The notes under the pieces were generated by a model. That model did not search any database, was not told where the DNA came from, and saw only the letters and a list, made by a program, of their open reading frames with translations. DNA of 44,776 nt. Origin: Escherichia phage ZCEC10. Both the position numbers and the translations under genes were made by a program. Shown here piece by piece: positions 5,348 to 40,772 of the stretch. How positions within the stretch are numbered: position 1 is the stretch's first letter; every line of letters starts with the position of its first letter. The stretch lies in sequence record NC_073075. One strand, written 5' to 3'.

Positions 5348-5638
5348 ATGGATAAGCTAAACGAGTGGTTATTCGCCCTTGCGTGTCTTGCTGGTGGCTT
5401 CGTGGGCGCACGCATTCACGGCGAGGCAACGAAAGGGCCGTTGAACTTCGTTTTATATGTCGTAGTTGGCTTCCTGTGTGCCATATTTGGTGCGCCAGCT
5501 ATTGCCGAGTGGTCTGGTTTGTCTGGCGAGCGCACTGTCGCCGGTTTGGGCTTCGTAACTGCCATCTTCTGGATGCCAATCGCCGACCGGATCCGGGAGA
5601 CAATTGCGACGCTACACCTTCCGGGGGGCGCAAAATGA
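5348..5638 (+). CDS. Holin-like membrane protein
   Basis: 96 aa with two or three hydrophobic segments, immediately upstream of endolysin. Confidence 0.55.
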   Translation: MDKLNEWLFALACLAGGFVGARIHGEATKGPLNFVLYVVVGFLCAIFGAPAIAEWSGLSGERTVAGLGFVTAIFWMPIADRIRETIATLHLPGGAK

Positions 5639-5880
5639 TTATCTCCGTCCTGTTGTTTGTTATCATAGGGGCTTCGTCCCTGTTTAACGTGTATGCGCCG
5701 TCCGTTCAGGATGGCTTCTTCGGTCGGGTGTTATATCTGCTAACAGCAATGACCTGTATTGTCGGGCTGTTGCAAACGGGAGACGTATCTGATGCCACCT
5801 GGACCGCGTTAATCTGGCTGTTTGCATTGCGCACGCTGCGCAATGCTGTTTTAAATGGGGTAAAACATGCGATTCAGTGA
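5635..5880 (+). CDS. Second small membrane protein (holin or antiholin candidate)
   Basis: 81 aa, two hydrophobic segments; ATGA overlap upstream and overlap with endolysin start. Confidence 0.5.
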   Translation: MIISVLLFVIIGASSLFNVYAPSVQDGFFGRVLYLLTAMTCIVGLLQTGDVSDATWTALIWLFALRTLRNAVLNGVKHAIQ

Positions 5881-6358
5881 CAACGGTCTAAGATTTACGG
5901 CAGCATGGGAGGCTTTCAGCCCAGTGCCGTATTTCGCGACTAAGAAAGAGCAGGCCCGCGGCCTGTATACCTGGGGCTATGGTCACACCGGCACTAATCC
6001 GCCACGAAGCATTACCCGTGCGGAAGCACTGGAGCTACTCAAGCGCGATGTGGCATATGCCGAGAACTGGGTGAACAAGTACGCACACCCGAGCATCAAT
6101 CAGGCGCAATTCGACGCGCTGGTGGACCTGGTAATCAATGCCGGTCCTGGTCCGATCATGCCGGACGACGTAGCCGGTGATTTCGACGATGCGATCCGCC
6201 TGGGCGACTGGGCAAAGGTGCGGGCTATACTGCCACAATTCCGCAAGCAAGGTGGGGAAGTGCTGAAGGGGTTAGTCCGTCGAGCAATCGGCAGGCAGGC
6301 GCTATTCGATGGTAAGCAGTGGGACGTTGCCGAGAAGATCGGACGTAACGCAGCATAA
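5867..6358 (+). CDS. Endolysin, GH24 lysozyme family
   Basis: 163 aa with lysozyme-like motifs (YTWGYGHT...NAGPG). Confidence 0.8.
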   Translation: MRFSDNGLRFTAAWEAFSPVPYFATKKEQARGLYTWGYGHTGTNPPRSITRAEALELLKRDVAYAENWVNKYAHPSINQAQFDALVDLVINAGPGPIMPDDVAGDFDDAIRLGDWAKVRAILPQFRKQGGEVLKGLVRRAIGRQALFDGKQWDVAEKIGRNAA

Positions 6359-6374
6359 TACGGGGTAACACAGT

Positions 6375-6782
6375 ATGTTAAAAAGTATTCTTGATCATAA
6401 CGCCGACGCGCTCGCCGCGCTGGCTAAAACCGAAGACCCAGGCGCACGCGCTATTGTAGCGGATACGATCAGCCATGCGGGGGTGTTTGGCGCAAGCCTT
6501 CCGGGTCCGAAACCAGAGGTGAAAGTGACAAGCGCCACGGTAACGGTAGCTCCCGAGGCGGTTACAATCGGCACCCCGGCGAAGGCTACTGCGGCGGTAC
6601 AACCGGCAGGGGCGACCAATAAATCCGGCGTGTGGGTCAGCGGGTCGCCGACCATTGCCACCGTGGATGCTTCTGGCAATATCACGGGTAAAGCACCTGG
6701 ATCTGTCGATATTATTTGGGTGGCTAAGGATGGAAGCGGGGTGTCGGGCCGCAAAACGGTAACTGTGGCAAACGCAGAGTAA
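6375..6782 (+). CDS. Bacterial Ig-like (Big_2-type) domain protein
   Basis: 135 aa; C-terminal TVTVAPEAVTIG...ATAAVQP...TIATVDASGNITGKAPGSVDIIWVAKDGSGVSGRKTVTV matches the Big_2 beta-sandwich pattern. Confidence 0.55.
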   Translation: MLKSILDHNADALAALAKTEDPGARAIVADTISHAGVFGASLPGPKPEVKVTSATVTVAPEAVTIGTPAKATAAVQPAGATNKSGVWVSGSPTIATVDASGNITGKAPGSVDIIWVAKDGSGVSGRKTVTVANAE

Positions 6783-13163: not shown

Positions 13164-13177
13164 TGGCCCCCTTTTGT
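13153..13177. terminator. Bidirectional rho-independent terminator between convergent genes
   Basis: Stem ggggcc/ggcccc with loop gtaat, AT-rich on both flanks. Confidence 0.7.
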
Positions 13178-13941
13178 TAGCGCGGAATACCGCAGATTTC
13201 GTTTAACGTCTTCACGTCCAGCGCCACCGCCGTGGACTTCAGCTTATCCGGGTATGGAATAAACTGTTCAACTTCAGGCCATGCTTTGATCAGCTTCTTA
13301 TCGGTATTGTGCATATCCAGCACGCCGGTAACAGTAAGTTTGAACGCGTCATACTTAGCTCGCAAATCGCGGCGGGCCTTGTCGTTACGGTCTAGTCGCT
13401 TGCAGAAATCGTGGTCCGCTGGGTAGTCTACACGACCGCGCGGAAGATATATCGGCAGCGCTTTCCCGTCCTCGTCGACTTCGCACACTGACGCGAGCAT
13501 AACTGTCTCGAACCCCGGAACGATATCGCCGAGATCAGGAGCGAGCTTATCCATATATTTCTCTTCCCAGTACCCGCGACGTACTCGGAATCGGTGTCCG
13601 TCTCCGCTCAATGACAGTGTGCGCACATTTCCGCCTGCGTTGATTTCGAAAGTGGCGTCGTAAACGCTGCCGATGCCTTTTGGGCGGTCGGCGTTATAAC
13701 TATACGTCGCCTTGTTGGTGTATACGCATACTCCGTACATCTGCGACGGGTCATCGCCGATTGCTTCAATGCGCGCGAGTAGCTCGGCGAATGTGCGAAT
13801 GCCTTCCGGCATACAGTCCAGCGTAATGTCATACGCCAGGTCGCGTGAGTCCATCATTATTGATTTGGCTTCGGTCGCGATTTCGTGGTCGCGCAGGATG
13901 TTAGCCAGAATCTGGTTTTTAATGTCTTTCGTCAGTCTCAT
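13177..13941 (-). CDS. Hypothetical protein (254 aa), antisense island within the head module
   Basis: Long clean ORF on the minus strand; no recognisable motifs. Confidence 0.7.
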   Translation of the reverse strand: MRLTKDIKNQILANILRDHEIATEAKSIMMDSRDLAYDITLDCMPEGIRTFAELLARIEAIGDDPSQMYGVCVYTNKATYSYNADRPKGIGSVYDATFEINAGGNVRTLSLSGDGHRFRVRRGYWEEKYMDKLAPDLGDIVPGFETVMLASVCEVDEDGKALPIYLPRGRVDYPADHDFCKRLDRNDKARRDLRAKYDAFKLTVTGVLDMHNTDKKLIKAWPEVEQFIPYPDKLKSTAVALDVKTLNEICGIPR

Positions 13942-32322: not shown

Positions 32323-32346
32323 GGGGCCATACGGCCCCTTTTTTTA
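32323..32346. terminator. Bidirectional terminator at the switch between the plus and minus gene blocks
   Basis: Stem ggggcc/ggcccc with loop atac, followed by T8. Confidence 0.7.
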
Positions 32347-32919
32347 GTTTGAGTTTTCCCAATCCATCTTGCGCCTCACTAGCGGGCTTTCGTAGTATTC
32401 CTTGCCCTCTACTTCCACCAAAGGCCAGTCGTTCACAATCACGTAAGGCTCTGCGATATCCTCGATCACGCCGTGCGCGCTATGTTGTCCGAACGATACG
32501 CCCACCAGGATAACACCGGCAACGCGACGGGTCAGATATTCGCGAGCGCAACGGGCCTCCACCAGTCCGCGACGGATGCCGCTGGTGGCCTTAACCTCGT
32601 AGGTCCATACAGCATCGATCACATGCTCGCGGAAGTCTGGGCCGGACTTTACCTTGCGCTTGCCGACCATGATGATATCGCCGCGGTCGATGGTGTTAGC
32701 GCTGAACAGACCGGTACGCATTAGTAAGCCTTGCGGTATGCAACTACGCCCGCCCGCCTGCCCCTCAAGGTACATACCTGCAAACATCTCGCCCAGAACA
32801 CCGACAAGACGGCTTTGTTTGCACGCGTCAGACTTTAGGCGCCACTGGTCAAACTCGATGCTTGCGATCATTGCCGCCAGGTGGAATTGTTTACCGGATA
32901 TTTCATATTCGCCGTGCAT
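32344..32919 (-). CDS. Putative PD-(D/E)xK-type nuclease
   Basis: 191 aa; GDIIMV ... WTYEVKATSG fits a D...(E)xK active-site arrangement (motif level only). Confidence 0.45.
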   Translation of the reverse strand: MHGEYEISGKQFHLAAMIASIEFDQWRLKSDACKQSRLVGVLGEMFAGMYLEGQAGGRSCIPQGLLMRTGLFSANTIDRGDIIMVGKRKVKSGPDFREHVIDAVWTYEVKATSGIRRGLVEARCAREYLTRRVAGVILVGVSFGQHSAHGVIEDIAEPYVIVNDWPLVEVEGKEYYESPLVRRKMDWENSN

Positions 32920-32961
32920 TGTGTTGCCCTCATTGATGCGGGCCGAAGCCCGCGATTAGAA

Positions 32962-33516
32962 TTATTTAAGTGCGCCAGTCACCAGTGTTTTTTCCATGTT
33001 ACGGAAATCTTCCTGCGTCATGCAGATTTTCGATCCGTCTTCGCCGGTGAGCACGACCATAGGCTGGACGTCTTGCGCTACAACCCCAAAATCGTGGGCC
33101 TTCACCGTCTTGCCGAACGAGGCCACCGTATCTTCTGCAACGCGAATTGCGCTGTTATACGCATTAATCTCACCGTCAAGACGTACGGACAGTCCTTTGA
33201 GGCTGTCGAATTGTGCTGCCGTTGTATCGATCTGAATCTCGTCATGCACGGTCATGTAAGACTCGCCCAGCAGGGCGGCATACGCCACCAGGTCCACGAT
33301 ATTATCTTCCTGGTGCTTACGGTGCTGGCGCACCAGCTTCAGGCAGATTAAGAAGGTCCAGGCTTCTTGCTCGGTCAGGTCGCGACCGGTAAGCGCGTTA
33401 AACACGGCAGCGATTTGCTTAGCGCTGCGTTCCTCTTTCGCGTTGTCATAGCCGTTTTCTTTCCCGCGCTGTTCCATAGTGGCGGCCGCGTTTTTGCAGT
33501 ATTCGTATGCTTTCAT
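32962..33516 (-). CDS. Hypothetical protein
   Basis: 184 aa clean ORF. Confidence 0.6.
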   Translation of the reverse strand: MKAYEYCKNAAATMEQRGKENGYDNAKEERSAKQIAAVFNALTGRDLTEQEAWTFLICLKLVRQHRKHQEDNIVDLVAYAALLGESYMTVHDEIQIDTTAAQFDSLKGLSVRLDGEINAYNSAIRVAEDTVASFGKTVKAHDFGVVAQDVQPMVVLTGEDGSKICMTQEDFRNMEKTLVTGALK

Positions 33517-33562
33517 TGTGTGGTCCTTTTAGTGGGAGGCGGTATTGCCTCCCGACGTGATT

Positions 33563-33592
33563 AAGATACTGCAACCAACCTATTGGTTGCAA
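33563..33592 (-). promoter_or_regulatory. Putative sigma70-like promoter (TTGCAA-18-TATCTT, minus strand) inside a palindromic TGCAACCAA..TTGGTTGCA element
   Basis: Minus-strand -35 at 33587..33592, -10 at 33563..33568. Confidence 0.4.
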
Positions 33593-34050
33593 GTGAATTT
33601 TGCAACGTTTATCGCATAAATTTTCGGGACCAGATCGCCGCACGCCCGACGAATTGCCGCGATGTTCTTCGGACAGTCTTCAATGATGACCAGTTCCGAC
33701 ACGTCCGCATAGCATACCATTTTGAACACGGCGCACGCCTTAAACTCTGGCGGCGGGGTGTCGTCCAGCATGTGGCGCATAAACAACCGGCCGTTCGGGA
33801 ATACTTCCAGTTGCTCGGCGGTGGTTTCCCAACATTCGCGCTGCCGGTTGGTCAGGTACGCGATCTCGAAGCCTTGCTCTTTGTACATGGTCAGCAGCGG
33901 CAGCATATCCATGTTCAGATCTTCGCGTATATGCGCTTTGTGCCACTTCGCCCAAAAGGTGGATTTTGTTTTTATGCCCGGAACCAGGTCGGCACGCGCA
34001 TCGCTTGAACCGTTAATAACGCCATCCAAATCGCAAATCAGTAGTTTCAT
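33580..34050 (-). CDS. HAD-superfamily hydrolase-like protein
   Basis: 156 aa; N-terminal LICDLDGVI matches HAD motif I (DxDG); Thr and Asp motifs downstream. Confidence 0.6.
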   Translation of the reverse strand: MKLLICDLDGVINGSSDARADLVPGIKTKSTFWAKWHKAHIREDLNMDMLPLLTMYKEQGFEIAYLTNRQRECWETTAEQLEVFPNGRLFMRHMLDDTPPPEFKACAVFKMVCYADVSELVIIEDCPKNIAAIRRACGDLVPKIYAINVAKFTCNQ

Positions 34051-34280
34051 TTTAAGCTCTCAATAAGGGTGTATCGGGCGCTGCGCGCGGTGAAGGAGTT
34101 GCACACGAAATGGCAACGCTGAGTCATGACAAGCCAACCGGTGAGGTCAAGGCCCAAGATGTATTCGGGGCGAGACGCGCGCACCACACGATTGCGTCGC
34201 GGGTCGATGTTATAGTCTCTTTGCATTTGGTCTACGACCGCGGGGTCGCGGTCAACGATTAAGATATTCATGTAACTCAC
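34047..34280 (-). CDS. Hypothetical protein (77 aa)
   Basis: Start/stop coupled to neighbours. Confidence 0.4.
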   Translation of the reverse strand: MSYMNILIVDRDPAVVDQMQRDYNIDPRRNRVVRASRPEYILGLDLTGWLVMTQRCHFVCNSFTARSARYTLIESLK

Positions 34281-34737
34281 TCTCGCTCATTATTTCAATT
34301 TGTGCGCCGCCGCTGGGCGTCGCTTCGTCAAATATTATTAATTGCTGGCACTTGTTATTGCTCGGCCCGACTTCACCGGTGACAGCGTGTATAAATCGGA
34401 TACGCCAGTCCAGCAGAATTATCAGGTTTGCAGTCTTCCGGGCCAGCTTCGCCCACTTCGTCGACGTGTCCTGATTAAGTAGCATGACGGTCCGGCGTCC
34501 GTGCGCTGCGCACTTGACCCACGGCAGTGGATCGGAATACGGCGGGTTGCACCACTTCCACCCTTTCAACTCTGACCAGTCCACCTCAAGCGCGCTGTGC
34601 TCTGCCGTGAAGTAACGCGGCAGCAGGTGGTTTGTGTCGCTTGCCGCCATATCGTAACGGAATCGGTACTTCCGCCGAAGCGGTTTAAATAAAGCTGGCG
34701 GCGTGCGCCAGCTATCCTTCTGCTCACTCTTCTGCAT
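34252..34737 (-). CDS. DNA N6-adenine methyltransferase (phage Dam-type)
   Basis: 161 aa; WRTPP near N-terminus and catalytic CNPPYS motif. Confidence 0.8.
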   Translation of the reverse strand: MQKSEQKDSWRTPPALFKPLRRKYRFRYDMAASDTNHLLPRYFTAEHSALEVDWSELKGWKWCNPPYSDPLPWVKCAAHGRRTVMLLNQDTSTKWAKLARKTANLIILLDWRIRFIHAVTGEVGPSNNKCQQLIIFDEATPSGGAQIEIMSESELHEYLNR

Positions 34738-35188
34738 GGTCGGTGTCTATCGCATACAGGGCGATTTTATTGCCGGTCTTGAGAATGCGTTGCACGCGCT
34801 TTGTCTCCTCGACACTAAGCGGGCGCGCGTCCGGGTAGAAGCTGCCATTTGTAGGGTTGCGCCACGCCATAAGCACCAAATCTTTACGGTCAACCTTAGA
34901 CTGGCGACCCTTCGGACGCACGTACTCCTCGGCCCGTTTGCAATGCTCACGCAGCCCGTCGGCAGTGATGCGGTTTAGTGCGACGCTGGTGGTGTATCCG
35001 GTGCGCTGCATAATCCCCATCAATTCGAATAGCAGTTCGAAGCGCTCCTCTAATTCCTTGCGCATCTTCTCCTCGCCTTCATAGCTCGCCAGGTAGGTAT
35101 CCGCCAGCGCGTTCGCACGTTCGGCCTGTTCGCGGGCTTCGAGGCATTGCGCGGCCCAGTAATTTTTCTCTTCTTGTAAAATTTTCAT
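34724..35188 (-). CDS. Hypothetical protein (154 aa)
   Basis: ATG at 35188 with GGAG RBS directly downstream of a promoter; longer track ORF to 35299 lacks an RBS. Confidence 0.55.
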   Translation of the reverse strand: MKILQEEKNYWAAQCLEAREQAERANALADTYLASYEGEEKMRKELEERFELLFELMGIMQRTGYTTSVALNRITADGLREHCKRAEEYVRPKGRQSKVDRKDLVLMAWRNPTNGSFYPDARPLSVEETKRVQRILKTGNKIALYAIDTDHAEE

Positions 35189-35236
35189 CGTGTCGTCTCC
35201 AGGTATTAAAAAAGGGCGCCCAAACCGGACACCCTC

Positions 35237-35265
35237 AATATACTGCAACCAATCTAATTGTGCAA
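35237..35265 (-). promoter_or_regulatory. Sigma70-like promoter (TTGCAC-17-TATATT, minus strand) with two ATTGGTTGCA copies
   Basis: Minus-strand -35 at 35260..35265, spacer carrying ATTGGTTGCAG, -10 at 35237..35242. Confidence 0.5.
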
Positions 35266-35270
35266 CCAAT

Positions 35271-35594
35271 TTACGAATAAAAATTTGGGTCGCGCGCAAC
35301 GTCTACCAGATACAGGTTACTAATGCGGTTGCCGTAATGGCCTGGTGTGCGTTGACGGCACACTACGGCATAGCCTGGAGGGATTGTATTGCCAGTCTCA
35401 ATAATCCACGCCACGCGTGCGCCAGACAGCGTCTTGCCGTTGCATTCGATACGAGTACCGCCATCGGCGGTATTGAGGTTGCCAATCTTGCAGCCTGTGG
35501 ACTTCAGACGAATGACGCCGGTTTTGCTGTCGTAGGAGAATAACTGGTTAGTCATTGCGACCGAAAAATCGATGGCTTCGAATGTAGTGTTCAT
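35271..35594 (-). CDS. HNH/AP2-like endonuclease-related protein, possibly degenerate
   Basis: 107 aa; YDSKTGVIRLK...GARVAWIIETG...NRISNLYLV resembles the HNH_3 pattern but lacks a clear catalytic His. Confidence 0.4.
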   Translation of the reverse strand: MNTTFEAIDFSVAMTNQLFSYDSKTGVIRLKSTGCKIGNLNTADGGTRIECNGKTLSGARVAWIIETGNTIPPGYAVVCRQRTPGHYGNRISNLYLVDVARDPNFYS

Positions 35595-36301
35595 TCTAAA
35601 TTTTCCTCATTGACTGCTATCGCGAAGCCGCGCGGGGTGAGCGACCGGATTAATTTTGTGCGGGCTGATTTGCCTCCGAGGCGACTATACTGCTTCGAGT
35701 ACCCTTTTTCAACGAATACAGGCTTTTTCTCCGGCATACGGAAGCCGTTGCCGGTCCACAAGCAGGTCAGCTTCGGATATGAATCGCGGGCGTTGATGTA
35801 TTCCGGGAAGAGCGGGTGTACGTCATCCTCCGGCAGATATCCCCCATACTCCCACGGGTCAAACGAGTGGTCTGGCTTGCGCCACTTGGTGGAAAGCACA
35901 CTGCGCGGATTCTCAATCATGTACGGCACTTCGAAGAAATCACCCAGGTAAGCGGCGATCTTCGCGGTGCGCACCGCCTTAAGCTGGAAGGCAGGGTCTT
36001 TTGCACGCTTGCGCGGGAAAGCTGGCGCGCCGCTCACGGCCAGATCCGTACACGGAGGGAACGCATAGATGATATCCGGCGTTCCAAAATCACCATTCAT
36101 CGCGCGGTCCACGAAGTCAAGATCGATAAACTCATTACGATAGCGGATTCCGCGACCATAGATCCGGTAGTCAAGGTAAGACCCGTGATCGGCTTCGGAG
36201 TAGTTGAAGCAATAACACTTATGCCCCATCTCGGCAGCACGCTCAATCATCAACCCGCTGCCGTCGAATAATGACCAGATTGTCATTTTAGCAATAGTCA
36301 T
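35591..36301 (-). CDS. Short DNA cytosine-C5 methyltransferase-like protein
   Basis: 236 aa; motif I-like LFDGSG, catalytic-type FPPCTDLAVSG, ENV-like MIENP; too short for a standard target-recognition domain. Confidence 0.55.
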   Translation of the reverse strand: MTIAKMTIWSLFDGSGLMIERAAEMGHKCYCFNYSEADHGSYLDYRIYGRGIRYRNEFIDLDFVDRAMNGDFGTPDIIYAFPPCTDLAVSGAPAFPRKRAKDPAFQLKAVRTAKIAAYLGDFFEVPYMIENPRSVLSTKWRKPDHSFDPWEYGGYLPEDDVHPLFPEYINARDSYPKLTCLWTGNGFRMPEKKPVFVEKGYSKQYSRLGGKSARTKLIRSLTPRGFAIAVNEENLE

Positions 36302-38481: not shown

Positions 38482-40772
38482 TATTTTCTGTACCTGTACA
38501 TGATGTCGCCTTCCGCGGCAAGCGGGAAGCCTTTCGCCCAAATAGGCAGGTCGCACATCAGCGCGCAAAGCTCCTCGGTCGTGTAGTCGTCGGTGTCCGG
38601 CACTTCGGTTATCAGTTCATCGTGAACGGACAGTACGATCTCATAGCCCGCAGCCTCAACGCCGGGCATGGACCACGCGAGGATATCGCGACACAGCGCC
38701 TGTACGATGTTTTCCGTCAGTTTGCCGCCGTAGGTGTACTGGAACCCCCACTGGCGCGTCGTCTGATTCTCGCCCTGGTATTTGATGCGGGTACTGGTGC
38801 GCTTCTTGCCGGTGTCTTCGTCGATCTCGGTCGTGACAGACAGTGCGATGCCTGGGTAGCTCATTATGCGCCCTGACGGCAACTCAATTTTAAGCCACCA
38901 CCCTGCCGCGTTCGGGTCGTCTCGCTCCTCGTCGAAGGTTGGGTCATGCTTCGCCTTCGTTCTAACAATTTTGAGCGCTTTTCTGCCGTCCGGGCGAACG
39001 TTCGCGCCCGCCCAGTATGCTTTGCCCGGATTGCGGATTGCACACAACACCGCGTCCTCAAGCTCGGCCCAAAAGGCTACCGTCTTCGGGTGAGCCTCAC
39101 GCCACATACGTTTGATCGCGTCACAAGTCAGCCACACGTTTTTAGGCAGTATGTAAGTCGGGCGCTCGTCCTTCTTGCCCGGCTTCGGTGGGCGCTTCGC
39201 TTCGTTAATGCGGGCGTACTCATAACCGCGTTTCGCCGCCGCCCAAATGTGATCCGGGAACGTGCCTTTCATAACGTCCGCCATAGTGTAAAGGTCGAGG
39301 CCCAGGTTTTTAGCGAACTGCAAGAACGCCGCGACGCCGCCACCATAGCCCAGTCCCAATTCGCACGCCTTACCGATCTGGCGTAAGTCCTTGCGGTTAG
39401 CTTTGATGTAATCCGGGTCAAGGCCGAACATTTTACCGGCAGTCTCGCAATAGATATCTCGTCCGGCCTTAAACACCATTAGCGCGGTTTTCTCTCCCGC
39501 GATCCAGGCAAGCCCACGCCCTTCCACGTTGGAGTAGTCCGCTACGACAAACTTCTTGCCCTTAGCCGGGATAATGCACCCGCGAACGGTCGAGGCTGTC
39601 AGCTTAGATATGTCATACGCCCAGTGCGCGGTCCCGCGTAACAGGGAATTGATGCCGTTGGTGAGCATGTGCGACCGGACCCAAAAAGCAACGTCGCTCT
39701 CGCCTTCGCGGCGTTTAATCTTCCCTTCGTGGTCGTCGCTATACTCGCCGCGTGCCAGGTTTTGAGGCTGGAAGCCTTTACCCGCCCAGCGTAACGTGCG
39801 CTTTGCGCCACCATACTGAAGACACCCACGGCGGCGACCATCGGCGGAGAGGCCATTAACGAGCGGATTGTACTTAGTCGATGCCGTTGATGACGCCCCG
39901 AGGCGCATTTCGATAAGCGCTTTGCCCTCGTCTGGGAAGTCCGGGTCTTCCAGTAGGTCGTTTAGCGTGGATTTCTGCGCGTTGTGTATTGTGAATGCTG
40001 GCGCAATATCACGCAGGATTGGCAGGAAGTCATTGCCGGTCAGCTTACCGCCAAATCGCTCCCAGGCTTCTTCCTTCAATTCTTCCTTATGCGCCTGCAC
40101 CGCTTTGATCGCGGCGTTCGCCAGGTCAACGTCCACATAGAAGCCTCGGTCATTAATCATCTGGTCGATGAGCAGGATTTCGTCTTCCTTCGGTGAGTTG
40201 CCCCAGTCCGGTATGCGCCAGTAGACTTCACGCATCGCGATAATATCCAGCGCGGCATATCGCAGAAATTTGGCCCATTCTTCAGGGTGAGTCTCGCGCG
40301 TGTAGCGGCGTATTTTGTAGGTCTTAGGGGTAGGCTTACAGAATCGTTTGATCAGCGCCTTGCCTGCCTTATCCTTCGCGTGCTCTGCGTCAACGCCCAG
40401 CACCTGACACTGCATATCGAGGCTGCCTGGCAGCGCGTGCCGAAAGGCCATAATCATGGTGTCTTCGATCTGGCTTACCGGCAGGTCAATACCCCACTTC
40501 TCACGGATAACCAGGCGGTCAAACAGGAGGCCGTTAGCCATCACGATTTTTGCTTTCTTGCGGGATACCTGACGGAGCGCCTTGCGCAGTTCACGCGGCA
40601 TTGTCGGGGATTCAGTGGCATCCCATGTCTGCACGCGGCCCTCGTCGATGGCGTATGTGCAAATCATAATCGCGGTCGATGGGTGTTCTGCGTAGGCGTA
40701 AGCGCCTACTTTCTTCAGGTCCACATCGCTAAATGTCTCGGTGTCGAGAAACAGACGTTCGAAGTCTTTCAT
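38481..40772 (-). CDS. Family A DNA polymerase with 3'-5' exonuclease domain
   Basis: 763 aa; Exo I motif FLDTETFS near N-terminus; Pol A motif C LSVHDELITEV. Confidence 0.9.
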   Translation of the reverse strand: MKDFERLFLDTETFSDVDLKKVGAYAYAEHPSTAIMICTYAIDEGRVQTWDATESPTMPRELRKALRQVSRKKAKIVMANGLLFDRLVIREKWGIDLPVSQIEDTMIMAFRHALPGSLDMQCQVLGVDAEHAKDKAGKALIKRFCKPTPKTYKIRRYTRETHPEEWAKFLRYAALDIIAMREVYWRIPDWGNSPKEDEILLIDQMINDRGFYVDVDLANAAIKAVQAHKEELKEEAWERFGGKLTGNDFLPILRDIAPAFTIHNAQKSTLNDLLEDPDFPDEGKALIEMRLGASSTASTKYNPLVNGLSADGRRRGCLQYGGAKRTLRWAGKGFQPQNLARGEYSDDHEGKIKRREGESDVAFWVRSHMLTNGINSLLRGTAHWAYDISKLTASTVRGCIIPAKGKKFVVADYSNVEGRGLAWIAGEKTALMVFKAGRDIYCETAGKMFGLDPDYIKANRKDLRQIGKACELGLGYGGGVAAFLQFAKNLGLDLYTMADVMKGTFPDHIWAAAKRGYEYARINEAKRPPKPGKKDERPTYILPKNVWLTCDAIKRMWREAHPKTVAFWAELEDAVLCAIRNPGKAYWAGANVRPDGRKALKIVRTKAKHDPTFDEERDDPNAAGWWLKIELPSGRIMSYPGIALSVTTEIDEDTGKKRTSTRIKYQGENQTTRQWGFQYTYGGKLTENIVQALCRDILAWSMPGVEAAGYEIVLSVHDELITEVPDTDDYTTEELCALMCDLPIWAKGFPLAAEGDIMYRYRK

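What the first reader, a model, noticed from the sequence alone, without database searches (positions are those of the whole stretch)
32344..36301. DNA-modification and nuclease gene cluster
Contiguous minus-strand genes encode a PD-(D/E)xK-like nuclease, an unknown 184-aa protein, a HAD-like hydrolase, a Dam-type N6-adenine methyltransferase (NPPY), an HNH/AP2-like protein that seems to lack the catalytic His, and a very short C5-cytosine-MTase-like protein (236 aa, PC and ENV-like motifs but no room for a normal target-recognition domain). The short MTase-like enzyme next to a HAD phosphatase raises the possibility of non-canonical DNA or nucleotide modification rather than plain 5mC methylation; the cluster is in any case a likely anti-restriction module.
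Basis: partly seen in the sequence, partly recalled or inferred. Interest (0 to 1): 0.6.

Follow-up and report, generated by a model that had tools for sequence, protein, structure and literature searches.

The report
Ordinary phage methylase and accessory genes
This stretch is the tail end of the early/DNA-metabolism operon of the known coliphage ZCEC11 (genus Dhillonvirus): it holds two ordinary self-protecting DNA methylases (one for adenine, one unusually compact one for cytosine), an already described anti-defence gene and a few accessory enzymes, with no sign of an exotic DNA chemistry.

Summary
The window is the complete genome of Escherichia phage ZCEC11 (Dhillonvirus). The genes are real and sit where stated, but there are eight, not six.

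- **236-aa protein.** It is not a remnant. It belongs to a large phage family of uniformly ~230-aa C5-cytosine methyltransferases. Its confident model resembles the DNMT3A/B catalytic domains. It is 53% identical to the KarlJaspers "Dcm-like" enzyme. The counterpart in phage K42 (genome 95% identical to KarlJaspers) makes 5-methylcytosine by LC-MS and triggers retron Ec86.
- **HAD gene.** It accompanies this methylase only within Dhillonvirus, and some isolates have lost or truncated it. One isolate has lost the methylase but kept the HAD gene. A two-enzyme modification pathway is therefore unsupported.
- **Dam.** It is a bona fide phage Dam. Among related phages, loci with a Dam homolog keep GATC at expected frequency; many Dam-less loci have purged it.
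- **191-aa protein.** It has a PD-(D/E)xK nuclease fold.
- **107-aa protein.** It is an HNH_3-like protein without the catalytic His.
- **Missed 154-aa gene.** It is mislabelled "DNA ligase" and is 86% identical to the published anti-Tmn protein.

Verdict: already known and low interest. An Nmad5 gene elsewhere in the genome is the better lead for unusual modification.

The parts
32323..32338 (.). G+C-rich hairpin (GGGGCC-ATAC-GGCCCC) between the convergent tail-fibre gene (+) and the 191-aa gene (-). It is followed by a T-run on the + strand, so it is a likely terminator at the operon end.
   Evidence: Terminator-like hit on both strands. ORF layout.
32344..32919 (-). 191-aa PD-(D/E)xK-fold nuclease-like protein, restricted to Dhillonvirus-like phages. 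Substrate unknown.
32962..33516 (-). 184-aa protein with an N-terminal DUF6378 domain. Function unknown; the C-terminal half varies in length among isolates.
   Evidence: PF19905, E 7e-10, above the Pfam cut-off. phrog_9871, E 2e-123; the 'phosphofructokinase' label of phrog_474 is unsupported. No PDB sequence match. Gene lengths differ in SM_S22 and SM_A8.
33580..34050 (-). 156-aa capless HAD-superfamily phosphatase (D7-x-D9, T67, E124-D125). It is closest to phage 'polynucleotide kinase/phosphatase'-type proteins and is dispensable in some isolates.
   Evidence: phrog_415, E 1e-35. Pfam Acid_phosphat_B, E 8e-5, 22.7 bits, below the 27-bit cut-off. Motif positions. Absent from L018 and truncated in SM_A8.
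34047..34271 (-). Small conserved ORF (74 aa from the ATG; 77 aa from the upstream GTG at 34280). Unknown function.
   Evidence: phrog_10685, E 2e-45, matching residues 4-77. Annotated as 225 nt in ZCEC11.
34252..34737 (-). 161-aa phage Dam-type N6-adenine DNA methyltransferase (NPPY at residues 64-67).
   Evidence: PF05869, E 5e-36, 124 bits against a cut-off of 28. TIGR01712, 87.5 bits against a cut-off of 97. PADLOC orphan MTase, E 1e-11. GATC is not avoided in this genome (165 observed, 167 expected) but is purged in Dam-less relatives.
34724..35188 (-). 154-aa homolog of the Dhillonvirus anti-Tmn protein (ORF35 of phage SM_S22).
   Evidence: 86% identity over all 154 residues to SM_S22 CDS0035. 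ORF35 is the anti-Tmn gene, and it is absent from SM_A8. No KxDG motif and no Pfam or NCBIfam family. The longer TTG-start ORF (to 35299) runs through the hairpin listed below.
35212..35264 (-). Terminator-like hairpin (35236-35212, 11 pairs plus a T-run) and an adjacent sigma-70-like promoter match (35264-35237), in the 82-nt gap between the HNH-like gene and the anti-Tmn homolog.
   Evidence: Consensus scans only. Function not shown.
35271..35594 (-). 107-aa HNH_3-like protein with a degenerate active site ('VVCRQRTPGHYGNRISNLYLV'). It is probably not a nuclease. It is found only in Dhillonvirus.
   Evidence: phrog_99, E 1e-16. Pfam HNH_3 only E 0.05, 13.7 bits against a cut-off of 24.8, matching profile positions 5-21 of 46. 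The sequence is conserved in all full-length homologs; the SSL-2009a copy diverges at its C-terminus.
35591..36301 (-). 236-aa compact Dcm-like C5-cytosine DNA methyltransferase. Motifs: I F12-x-G14-S-G16; IV P82-P83-C84; VI E130-N-P132; C-terminal I218-R-S-L-T-P-R-G225.

Best explanation
The interval is the distal part of the minus-strand early/DNA-metabolism operon of a Dhillonvirus. The gene order is DNA polymerase I, VRR-NUC-type nuclease, SNF2 helicase, then this stretch.

**Methyltransferases.** It carries two orphan DNA methyltransferases that act on replicating phage DNA using S-adenosylmethionine:
- a phage Dam that makes N6-methyladenine, most likely at GATC;
- a compact DNMT3-like 'Dcm-like' enzyme that makes ordinary 5-methylcytosine, probably at CCWGG.

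Together they make the phage independent of the host's Dam/Dcm status. They protect only against restriction enzymes whose sites overlap these motifs. The cost is that they can trigger methylation-sensing retrons.

**Other genes.** These are independent accessory cargo:
- a homolog of the anti-Tmn inhibitor;
- a HAD phosphatase, likely acting on nucleic-acid ends or nucleotides;
- a PD-(D/E)xK-fold nuclease-like protein;
- a catalytically degenerate HNH_3-like protein;
- two proteins of unknown function.

**Shown here:** gene identities, folds, motifs, family sizes and gene co-occurrence.

**Shown by others on homologs:** 5mC formation and retron triggering by the K42 enzyme; anti-Tmn activity of the SM_S22 protein.

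**Inferred:** activity and site specificity of the ZCEC11 proteins themselves, and the roles of the HAD protein and the nuclease-like protein.
For: **Identity and conservation.** The region is 100% identical to ZCEC11 and is conserved in 147 records.

**Dam.**
- PF05869 at 124 bits, with NPPY present.
- GATC observed/expected is at least 0.71 in all 41 related loci that hold a Dam homolog.
- It is 0.02-0.25 in 17 of the 38 loci without a Dam homolog. These include all 10 Dam-less loci of the sister group that shares the polymerase, helicase and methylase. The one Dam-positive sister locus, L026, has 1.12.
- T7, which has no methylase, has 6 GATC against 156 expected.

**C5-methyltransferase.**
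- The motifs FxGxG, PPC and ENP are invariant.
- 24 of 38 relatives hit PF00145. The family profile's best PDB matches are M.HaeIII and DNMT3B, aligned from motif I to the PC motif.
- The short length is a family trait.
- It is 53% identical over its full length to the KarlJaspers Dcm-like enzyme.
- The egaa ortholog has its catalytic Cys at position 82, the numbering used for K42 Dcm.
- K42 Dcm raises 5mC on retron Ec86 msDNA by LC-MS. A catalytic mutant does not. Defence requires the CCTGG site (bioRxiv 10.1101/2023.08.16.553469).

**No coupling between methylase and HAD.**
- No HAD homolog lies within 8 kb of the methylase in 64 of 64 non-Dhillonvirus loci, and L018 lacks it.
- The HAD gene is truncated in SM_A8.
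- Teewinot retains only residues 181-236 of the methylase but keeps all its neighbours.

**Anti-Tmn homolog.** 86% identity to SM_S22 CDS0035, which is ORF35.

**Nuclease fold.**

**No other modification genes.** No hydroxymethylase, kinase, aGPT-Pplase, glycosyltransferase or CmoA is annotated in close relatives.
Against: - No experiment exists on ZCEC11 itself; its description paper does not mention methylation.
- The methylase shares only 53% identity with the tested enzyme. They differ in the loop at residues 190-207, which could change specificity.
- The CCWGG assignment for K42 rests on mutating the retron site, not on a methylome.
- CCWGG frequency does not discriminate: T1 lacks this methylase and does not avoid CCWGG either, at O/E 1.16.
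- This protein itself does not reach any Pfam or NCBIfam threshold.
- Dhillonvirus phages are reported as sensitive to the tested restriction-modification systems, so the protective value is narrow.
- Roughly half of the Dam-less loci do not avoid GATC. Dam could also lie outside the 8-kb flanks that were examined.
- An Nmad5 gene elsewhere in the genome (13177-13941) leaves room for an uncharacterised modification.
Confidence: 0.75

Rival explanations
1. The short C5-methyltransferase-like enzyme installs a non-methyl group on cytosine (for example carboxymethyl from carboxy-SAM, as CmoX does) or on a nucleotide precursor. The adjacent HAD phosphatase acts in the same pathway.
For: [quoted passage not shown]
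- The family has an invariant Arg219 in the motif-X region, near the position where CmoX has its cofactor-selecting Arg.
- The genome also carries an Nmad5 gene.
Against: - The K42 homolog gives 5mC by LC-MS in E. coli MG1655.
- The CmoX signature is SPPC plus an Arg replacing HhaI N304, usually with phage CmoA and a CmoY ligase. ZCEC11 has FPPC, and no CmoA or AMP-ligase is annotated in relatives.
- From my own recall of the sequence, not checked here: DNMT3A/B, which are genuine SAM-dependent methylases and the best structural matches, also carry 'GRSW' in motif X.
- The HAD gene is not co-inherited with the methylase outside the genus and is lost or truncated within it.
- The methylase is lost in Teewinot while the HAD gene is kept.
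Confidence: 0.05
2. The two methylases are active but serve mainly phage physiology rather than anti-restriction. Possible roles are replication or packaging control, avoidance of host MutH/Vsr processing of under-methylated progeny DNA, or gene regulation.
For: - Dhillonvirus phages are described as sensitive to the type I-III restriction-modification systems tested.
- BASEL found no simple link between methylase genes and restriction resistance in the related Drexlerviridae.
- Teewinot is viable without the C5-methylase.
- The genome shows a Vsr-like signature: CTTGG/CCAAG at O/E 0.40.
Against: - The sharp GATC depletion in Dam-less relatives, against normal GATC in Dam-positive ones, is what selection by GATC-cutting enzymes predicts.
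- The restriction-modification systems tested in BASEL do not have GATC- or CCWGG-overlapping sites (my own knowledge), so they do not test this.
Confidence: 0.15
3. The 191-aa PD-(D/E)xK protein is a restriction-type endonuclease that works with the phage methylases as a phage-borne restriction-modification-like pair. It would cut unmethylated host or competitor DNA while phage DNA is protected.
For: - One GenBank record labels the ortholog 'restriction endonuclease'.
Against: - The gene is four genes away from Dam and six from the C5-methylase.
- It is absent from all non-Dhillonvirus loci, including those with both methylases.
- Teewinot keeps it without the C5-methylase.
- Ordinary E. coli DNA is already Dam/Dcm-methylated (my own knowledge).
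Confidence: 0.04
4. The 236-aa protein is an inactive, truncated remnant of a normal C5-methyltransferase.
For: - It gives no Pfam or NCBIfam hit of its own.
- It is about 100 residues shorter than classical bacterial enzymes (my own knowledge).
Against: - 46 columns are invariant, including every catalytic motif.
- There are thousands of homologs of the same length.
- The model is compact and confident.
- A family member is active in vivo.
- A real remnant looks different: the 61-aa ORF in Teewinot.
Confidence: 0.01

Closest known systems
Phage K42 / KarlJaspers (Bas06) 'Dcm-like C5 cytosine methyltransferase' (Drexlerviridae, Hanrivervirus)
   Same: Same length (236 aa, 711-bp gene). 53% identity end to end. 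Same spacing between the catalytic Cys, the ENP Glu and the YxK(K) motif. Same position near the helicase gene. The K42 enzyme makes 5mC and triggers retron Ec86.
   Different: The loop at residues 190-207 differs: 'GYSKQYSRL' here against 'DKDNPGWAKT' there. K178 is Leu here. No experiment has been done on the Dhillonvirus enzyme.
DNMT3A/DNMT3B catalytic domains (eukaryotic de novo C5-methyltransferases)
   Different: Sequence identity is only 14-17%. There are no regulatory domains. The oligomeric state is unknown. The likely target is CCWGG rather than CpG.
E. coli Dcm / M.EcoRII-type bacterial C5-methyltransferases (PF00145)
   Same: Same chemistry and probably the same target site. The PC motif aligns.
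   Different: Host Dcm is 472 aa with a large target-recognition domain. Profile comparison aligns only 25 columns, E 0.21. The ZCEC11 protein does not reach the PF00145 threshold.
CmoX, DNA cytosine C5-carboxymethyltransferase of Synechococcus phage S-B43 (PDB 8yf3)
   Different: CmoX has SPPC plus a cofactor-selecting Arg350, uses carboxy-SAM made by a phage CmoA, and is usually found with a CmoY ligase. ZCEC11 has FPPC and none of the partner genes.
Phage Dam family PF05869 (phage N-6-adenine methyltransferases of the T1/HP1/VT2 type)
   Same: Pfam score 124 bits and the NPPY motif. 32% identity to T1 Dam.
   Different: It scores below the NCBIfam equivalog cut-off, 87.5 against 97. At 161 aa it is shorter than T1 Dam (237 aa; gene 39024-39737).
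Anti-Tmn (ORF35) of Dhillonvirus phage SM_S22 (PMC11846954)
   Same: 86% identity over 154 of 154 residues. Same position between Dam and the HNH-like gene.
   Different: The paper reports that close homologs differ widely in which Tmn variants they inhibit. The activity of the ZCEC11 allele is unknown.
I-Ssp6803I and other small PD-(D/E)xK nucleases (Hjc, SSV D212)
   Different: Sequence identity is about 10-14%. There is an extra N-terminal helical region (residues 10-54). No family assignment. Activity untested.

Membership tests
C5-cytosine DNA methyltransferase (PF00145 superfamily) | Motif I FxGxG (AdoMet binding) | tested here: met
   F12-D-G14-S-G16. F12, G14, S15 and G16 are conserved in at least 90% of family members. 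The motif aligns to M.HaeIII and DNMT3B motif I.
C5-cytosine DNA methyltransferase (PF00145 superfamily) | Motif IV Pro-Cys with the catalytic cysteine | tested here: met
   P82-P83-C84 is invariant. It aligns with the PC motif of M.HaeIII, DNMT3B and E. coli Dcm.
C5-cytosine DNA methyltransferase (PF00145 superfamily) | Motif VI Glu-Asn-Val | tested here: met
   E130-N131-P132 is invariant (ENP instead of ENV). It corresponds to E128 of K42 Dcm, which was mutated in the inactive control.
C5-cytosine DNA methyltransferase (PF00145 superfamily) | Score above Pfam's gathering threshold | tested here: not met
   This protein has no PF00145 hit at E <= 0.1. 24 of 38 relatives hit at E <= 1, best 1.3e-6. 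Membership is at superfamily/fold level.
C5-cytosine DNA methyltransferase (PF00145 superfamily) | C5-methyltransferase fold | tested here: met
C5-cytosine DNA methyltransferase (PF00145 superfamily) | Target-recognition domain of usual size between motifs VIII and IX | tested here: not met
   Only about 75 residues lie between ENP (130-132) and the C-terminal conserved block (from L208). This is a family-wide trait and resembles DNMT3.
C5-cytosine DNA methyltransferase (PF00145 superfamily) | Product is 5-methylcytosine | not testable with these tools
   Shown by LC-MS for the K42 homolog only.
CmoX-type DNA C5-carboxymethyltransferase | SPPC motif plus Arg at the HhaI-N304 position | tested here: not met
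   The motif is FPPC (F81, nearly invariant A80-F-P-P-C), against the SPPC required in PMC12783734. The residue equivalent to N304 could not be fixed by alignment: hhalign reached only the PC motif.
CmoX-type DNA C5-carboxymethyltransferase | Phage-encoded CmoA and/or CmoY ligase in the genome | tested here: not met
   None is annotated in the fully annotated relatives UDS3lw and SM_S22. The gene labelled 'DNA ligase' is the anti-Tmn homolog and matches no ligase family. No dedicated profile search for CmoA was run.
Phage Dam (PF05869 / TIGR01712) | Pfam gathering score | tested here: met
   124.3 bits against a cut-off of 28.1.
Phage Dam (PF05869 / TIGR01712) | NCBIfam equivalog cut-off | tested here: not met
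   87.5 bits against a cut-off of 97.05.
Phage Dam (PF05869 / TIGR01712) | (D/N)PPY catalytic motif | tested here: met
   C-N-P-P-Y at residues 63-67.
Phage Dam (PF05869 / TIGR01712) | GATC specificity | tested here: inconclusive
   Indirect only. GATC is retained wherever a Dam homolog is present and purged in many Dam-less relatives. No methylome data.
HAD-superfamily phosphatase | Motif I DxDx(T/V) nucleophile, plus motifs II-IV | tested here: met
   D7-L-D9-G-V, T67, K104 or K110, E124-D125.
HAD-superfamily phosphatase | Curated family thresholds | tested here: not met
   Acid_phosphat_B 22.7 bits against 27. TIGR01662 14.2 bits against 44.6. Only phrog_415 is strong, E 1e-35. The subfamily and substrate are unresolved.
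PD-(D/E)xK nuclease superfamily | Restriction-endonuclease-like alpha/beta core fold | tested here: met
PD-(D/E)xK nuclease superfamily | D ... (D/E)-x-K catalytic signature | tested here: met
   D81 and D102, then E108-V-K110, all invariant. Which Asp is catalytic was not resolved.
HNH endonuclease (HNH_3, PF13392) | Catalytic His of the beta-beta-alpha-metal motif | tested here: not met
   The Pfam match stops at profile position 21 of 46, 13.7 bits against a cut-off of 24.8. The expected 'DH' position reads C79-R80-Q81, conserved in all full-length homologs. The position assignment was made by hand.
Anti-Tmn (Dhillonvirus ORF35 family) | Sequence homology and synteny with the tested SM_S22 protein | tested here: met
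   86% identity, E 2e-103, full length. Same slot between Dam and the HNH-like gene. The slot is empty in SM_A8, as the paper states.
Anti-Tmn (Dhillonvirus ORF35 family) | Inhibition of a Tmn defence system | not testable with these tools
   The paper reports that activity is allele-specific among close homologs.

The most novel reading that the evidence does not exclude
Dhillonvirus DNA may carry something beyond plain Dam/Dcm methylation, in one of two ways.

1. The compact DNMT3-like methylase may have a specificity or product different from host Dcm. K42 Dcm raised 5mC on the retron DNA in a strain I know to be dcm+ (MG1655), which hints that it does not simply duplicate host Dcm.
2. The lone Nmad5 protein at 13177-13941 may direct an uncharacterised base modification. 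Members of this family sit in thymidine-hypermodification cassettes of M6-like phages. Mutation of the Dhillonvirus gene lets the phage escape the Tmn defence.

My evidence excludes neither. No nucleoside analysis of any Dhillonvirus turned up in my literature searches.
Probability: 0.1. Interest if true: 0.55.

Novelty: already known. Interest (0 to 1): 0.15.

Why it matters
As a discovery it matters little. The phage and its genes are in GenBank with essentially these annotations. The compact methylase family has been shown to make 5mC, and the anti-Tmn gene has been published.

The practical value lies in corrections and in tests that are now straightforward:
- The widely propagated 'DNA ligase' label on the 154-aa gene should read anti-Tmn homolog.
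- The 191-aa 'hypothetical protein' can be called a PD-(D/E)xK-fold protein.
- The 'HNH endonuclease' is probably not a nuclease.

For phage-therapy candidates such as ZCEC11, these genes predict two sensitivities: to methylation-sensing retrons (Ec86/Eco1) and to Tmn.

The contrast between Dam presence and GATC avoidance among close relatives is a clean natural experiment on methylase-mediated escape from restriction.

Tried and rejected
- **Single-sequence searches of PDB sequences.** Queries with the methylase, HAD, 191-aa and DUF6378 proteins gave only chance hits or nothing.
- **Methylase family profile against PDB sequences.** Hits were weak (E 0.4-0.9) although all were C5-methyltransferases.
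- **hhalign of the family against E. coli Dcm.** It aligned only the PC motif, so the residue equivalent to HhaI N304 / CmoX R350 could not be fixed.
- **PADLOC.** It matched only Dam.
- **CCWGG enrichment as evidence for methylase specificity.**
  - The genome has 150 sites against 70 in dinucleotide shuffles.
  - The excess disappears under a third-order Markov model, O/E 0.93.
  - T1, which lacks this methylase, also does not avoid CCWGG. The signal was rejected as uninformative.
- **Retron-Eco7 lead.** I looked for the unnamed Dhillonvirus gene whose mutation escapes Retron-Eco7 (PMC12640716). It is not named in the text and no supplement is held.
- **Literature gaps.** Iyer et al. 2013, the source of the Nmad domain names, is not held. 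The ZCEC11 paper contains nothing on methylation, restriction or nucleases. Searches for a Dhillonvirus methylome or nucleoside analysis found none.
- **Rejected readings.** Truncated pseudogene, restriction-modification pair and HAD-coupled modification pathway were all considered and rejected; see the rival explanations.

Full report
**What the window is.** The 44,776-base window is the complete genome of Escherichia phage ZCEC11 (OK310512.1, genus Dhillonvirus). Region 32344-36301 matches it at 100%. At 80-95% DNA identity it matches 147 other records over at least 80% of its length, nearly all Dhillonvirus coliphages. The paper describing ZCEC11 says nothing about methylation, restriction or nucleases.

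**Check of the observation.** Each matches a phage protein family strongly.
- Two more conserved genes lie in the interval and were missed:
  - a 74/77-aa ORF at 34047-34271/34280 (phrog_10685);
  - a 154-aa ORF at 34724-35188.
- The longer TTG-start version of the 154-aa ORF (191 aa) would run through a terminator-like hairpin (35236-35212) and a promoter-like site in the 82-nt gap downstream of the HNH-like gene. Relatives annotate the short form.
- The genes abut or overlap by a few bases. They follow the SNF2 helicase, a VRR-NUC-type nuclease and DNA polymerase I on the same strand.
- They end at a G+C-rich hairpin (32323-32338) facing the convergent tail-fibre gene.

**The 236-aa methyltransferase-like protein: family and fold.** It has no Pfam or NCBIfam hit of its own, but it is neither isolated nor decayed.
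- At least 2888 homologs were found; the 120 listed are mostly 225-250 aa.
- An exhaustive search found 824 representative clusters at 50% identity, nearly all 210-260 aa.
- tblastn found the gene in 1509 phage records, including Drexlerviridae, rV5-like myoviruses and Klebsiella siphoviruses.
- In an alignment of 38 members, 46 columns are invariant. These include P82-P83-C84, E130-N-P132 and a C-terminal block L208-G-G-K...I218-R-S-L-x-P-R-G225; the motif I residues F12, G14, S15 and G16 are at least 90% conserved.
- 24 of 38 members hit PF00145, best E 1.3e-6.
- The family profile's best PDB sequence matches are M.HaeIII and DNMT3B, aligned from motif I to the PC motif.
- The AlphaFold model is confident: pLDDT 91.6, pTM 0.90.
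- Foldseek's top hits are all DNMT3-family catalytic domains.

That is the family's normal state, and it has a precedent in DNMT3.

**The 236-aa protein: experimental anchor.** The protein is 53% identical over its full length (E 8e-86) to the 'Dcm-like C5 cytosine methyltransferase' of phage KarlJaspers/Bas06. A preprint on retron Ec86 (bioRxiv 10.1101/2023.08.16.553469) studied phage K42, whose genome is 95% identical to Bas06.
- Escape mutants disrupt a 711-bp dcm gene.
- The predicted active-site residues are C82, E128, K175 and K176. This is exactly the spacing of C84, E130 and K177 here. The egaa ortholog indeed has Cys at position 82.
- Expressing the enzyme, but not the quadruple mutant, raises 5mC on the retron msDNA by LC-MS.
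- Defence requires the CCTGG site.

Plain 5-methylcytosine is therefore the demonstrated product of this family. The site specificity of the ZCEC11 enzyme remains an inference. The two proteins differ in a loop at residues 190-207.

**Is the HAD phosphatase a partner of the methylase?** The 156-aa protein has all four HAD motifs (D7-x-D9, T67, K104 or K110, E124-D125). It matches phrog_415 'polynucleotide kinase' at E 1e-35, but it is below every curated Pfam and NCBIfam cut-off. I fetched 79 viral loci encoding relatives of the methylase, with up to 8 kb on each side, and searched them with all the cluster proteins.
- A HAD homolog accompanies the methylase in 14 of 15 Dhillonvirus-like loci and in 0 of 64 others.
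- Locus L018, whose methylase is 91% identical, lacks the HAD gene.
- Phage SM_A8 has a truncated copy.
- Dhillonvirus Teewinot keeps the HAD gene and every other neighbour, but retains only residues 181-236 of the methylase, as a 61-aa ORF.

Neither gene depends on the other. Only the polymerase-helicase-methylase core is shared with a sister group; the remaining genes are genus-specific cargo.

**Could it be a CmoX-like enzyme?** CmoX (PDB 8yf3) is a natural phage C5-carboxymethyltransferase. It is defined by an SPPC motif, an Arg replacing HhaI N304 that binds the carboxyl group of carboxy-SAM, and usually a phage CmoA and a CmoY ligase (PMC12783734).
- ZCEC11 has FPPC.
- No CmoA or AMP-forming ligase is annotated in well-annotated relatives.
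- The family does have an invariant R219 in its motif-X region. I could not fix its structural equivalence by alignment.
- From memory, DNMT3A/B carry a similar 'GRSW' and use SAM.

Together with the K42 LC-MS result, I put this reading at about 5%.

**Dam.** The 161-aa protein scores 124 bits on PF05869 and has NPPY at residues 64-67. It falls slightly short of the NCBIfam equivalog cut-off.
- GATC is not avoided in ZCEC11: 165 sites against 167 +/- 11 in shuffles.
- T7, which has no methylase, has 6 GATC against 156 expected.
- Among the 79 loci, all 41 with a Dam homolog have GATC observed/expected of at least 0.71.
- 17 Dam-less loci have 0.02-0.25. These include all 10 Dam-less loci of the sister group that shares polymerase, helicase and methylase (0.05-0.22).
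- The one sister-group locus with a Dam homolog has 1.12.

This is indirect but consistent evidence that Dam relieves selection by GATC-cutting restriction enzymes. Two caveats apply: only 8-kb flanks were examined, and about half of the Dam-less loci do not avoid GATC.

**CCWGG counts are uninformative.**
- The genome has 150 sites against 70 +/- 7 in dinucleotide shuffles. The excess vanishes under a third-order Markov model, O/E 0.93.
- T1 lacks the short methylase and does not avoid CCWGG either, at 1.16. T7 has 2 sites against 71 expected.
- CTTGG/CCAAG is depleted, O/E 0.40, a Vsr-repair-like signature that I did not pursue.

**The 191-aa protein.**
- It has no hit in the curated Pfam, NCBIfam or PADLOC libraries, and only six homolog clusters, all from Dhillonvirus-like contigs.
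- D81, D102, E108 and K110 are invariant.

The substrate and role are unknown.

**The 107-aa protein.**
- It matches phrog_99 'HNH endonuclease' at E 1e-16. It matches only the first part of Pfam HNH_3 (profile positions 5-21 of 46; 13.7 bits against a cut-off of 24.8).
- Where the catalytic 'DH' is expected it reads C79-R80-Q81, while the downstream 'NRISNL' is kept. This is conserved in all full-length homologs, which are found only in Dhillonvirus.
- 'Lacks the catalytic His' is supported. An AP2 domain was not detected.

**The missed 154-aa gene.** PHROGs and many GenBank records label it 'DNA ligase'. It has no ligase family hit and no KxDG motif.
- It is 86% identical over its full length to CDS0035 of phage SM_S22.
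- In PMC11846954, ORF35 of SM_S22 is the anti-Tmn protein. Deleting it sensitises the phage to the Tmn defence system, and the gene is 'absent in SM_A8'.
- The ORF numbering matches the GenBank CDS numbering: CDS6 is Nmad5 in both.
- SM_A8 indeed has an empty 139-nt gap between Dam and the HNH-like gene.
- The paper stresses that close homologs differ in which Tmn variants they block. The activity of the ZCEC11 allele is therefore open.

**Context on restriction.** The BASEL papers describe Dhillonvirus phages as sensitive ('considerable' or 'moderate') to the tested restriction-modification systems, in contrast to the deazaguanine-modified Queuovirinae. That fits narrow, motif-limited protection rather than a general anti-restriction module.

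**A better lead for unusual modification lies outside the interval.**
- Window 13177-13941 (minus strand, embedded in the plus-strand head module) encodes a 254-aa Nmad5 protein: PF18757, E 2.6e-57. It is 90% identical to SM_S22 Nmad5.
- A K296E change in the SM_S22 protein lets the phage escape Tmn, whereas deleting the gene does not.
- Nmad5 genes sit in the thymidine-hypermodification cassette of M6-like phages. They also occur in Stx phages.
- Dhillonvirus annotations show none of the partner enzymes.

No chemistry is known for this protein. I record it as a lead, not a finding.

**Verdict.** The gene-level readings are mostly right. The interesting hypothesis is not supported. The cluster is an already annotated, largely understood set of phage genes: two orphan methylases making ordinary marks, a published anti-defence gene family, and accessory enzymes of unknown role. 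Novelty: already known. Interest is low.

Noticed in passing
window 13177-13941 (-): A full-length Nmad5 ('nucleotide modification associated domain 5', PF18757, E 2.6e-57) gene sits in reverse orientation inside the head-gene module. It is 90% identical to SM_S22 Nmad5, whose K296E mutation escapes the Tmn defence. No partner modification enzymes are annotated in the genus, and its chemistry is unknown.
   Followed up: partly
loci L022, L027, L030, L034, L044, L046, L047, L054, L055, L077 versus L026 (IMG/VR contigs, ~44 kb phages sharing PolA, SNF2 and the short methylase at 60-67% identity): The ten loci without a Dam homolog have almost no GATC (observed/expected 0.05-0.22). The one with a Dam homolog has 1.12. 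CCWGG is not strongly avoided in any of them. This is a natural contrast linking Dam carriage to relief from GATC avoidance.
   Followed up: partly
L087 (Escherichia phage vB_EcoD_Teewinot, NC_073053.1) 5986-6171: In this Dhillonvirus the C5-methylase gene is reduced to a 186-nt ORF that keeps only residues 181-236. All neighbouring genes are intact. It is a natural knockout, showing the methylase is dispensable.
   Followed up: yes
L091 (phage SM_A8, PP920553.1) 5376-5732 and 6420-6558; L018: SM_A8 has a shortened HAD gene (357 nt against 471 nt) and no anti-Tmn gene. IMG/VR locus L018 lacks both the HAD gene and the small ORF. The distal genes of this operon are variable cargo.
   Followed up: partly
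whole window: CTTGG/CCAAG is strongly under-represented (20 observed against 50 expected under a third-order Markov model, O/E 0.40), while CCWGG is at expectation. This is a signature like that attributed to Vsr very-short-patch repair in E. coli.
   Followed up: no
window 32344-36301, + strand; GenBank OK310512.1 and OK310513.1: The deposited ZCEC11 and ZCEC12 annotations carry several plus-strand 'hypothetical protein' CDSs that overlap the conserved minus-strand genes. ZCEC12 even has an 'olfactory receptor' product name. These look like over-calls.
   Followed up: no
P0280 (Escherichia phage SSL-2009a 'putative HNH endonuclease'): The SSL-2009a copy of the 107-aa HNH-like protein diverges completely after residue ~73. 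This is consistent with a frameshift in that record.
   Followed up: no
PMC12640716 (Retron-Eco7 paper): Escape mutants of a Dhillonvirus ('phage98') map to an unnamed gene of unknown function that triggers Retron-Eco7. It could be one of the genes in this operon, but the text does not identify it and no supplement was available.
   Followed up: partly
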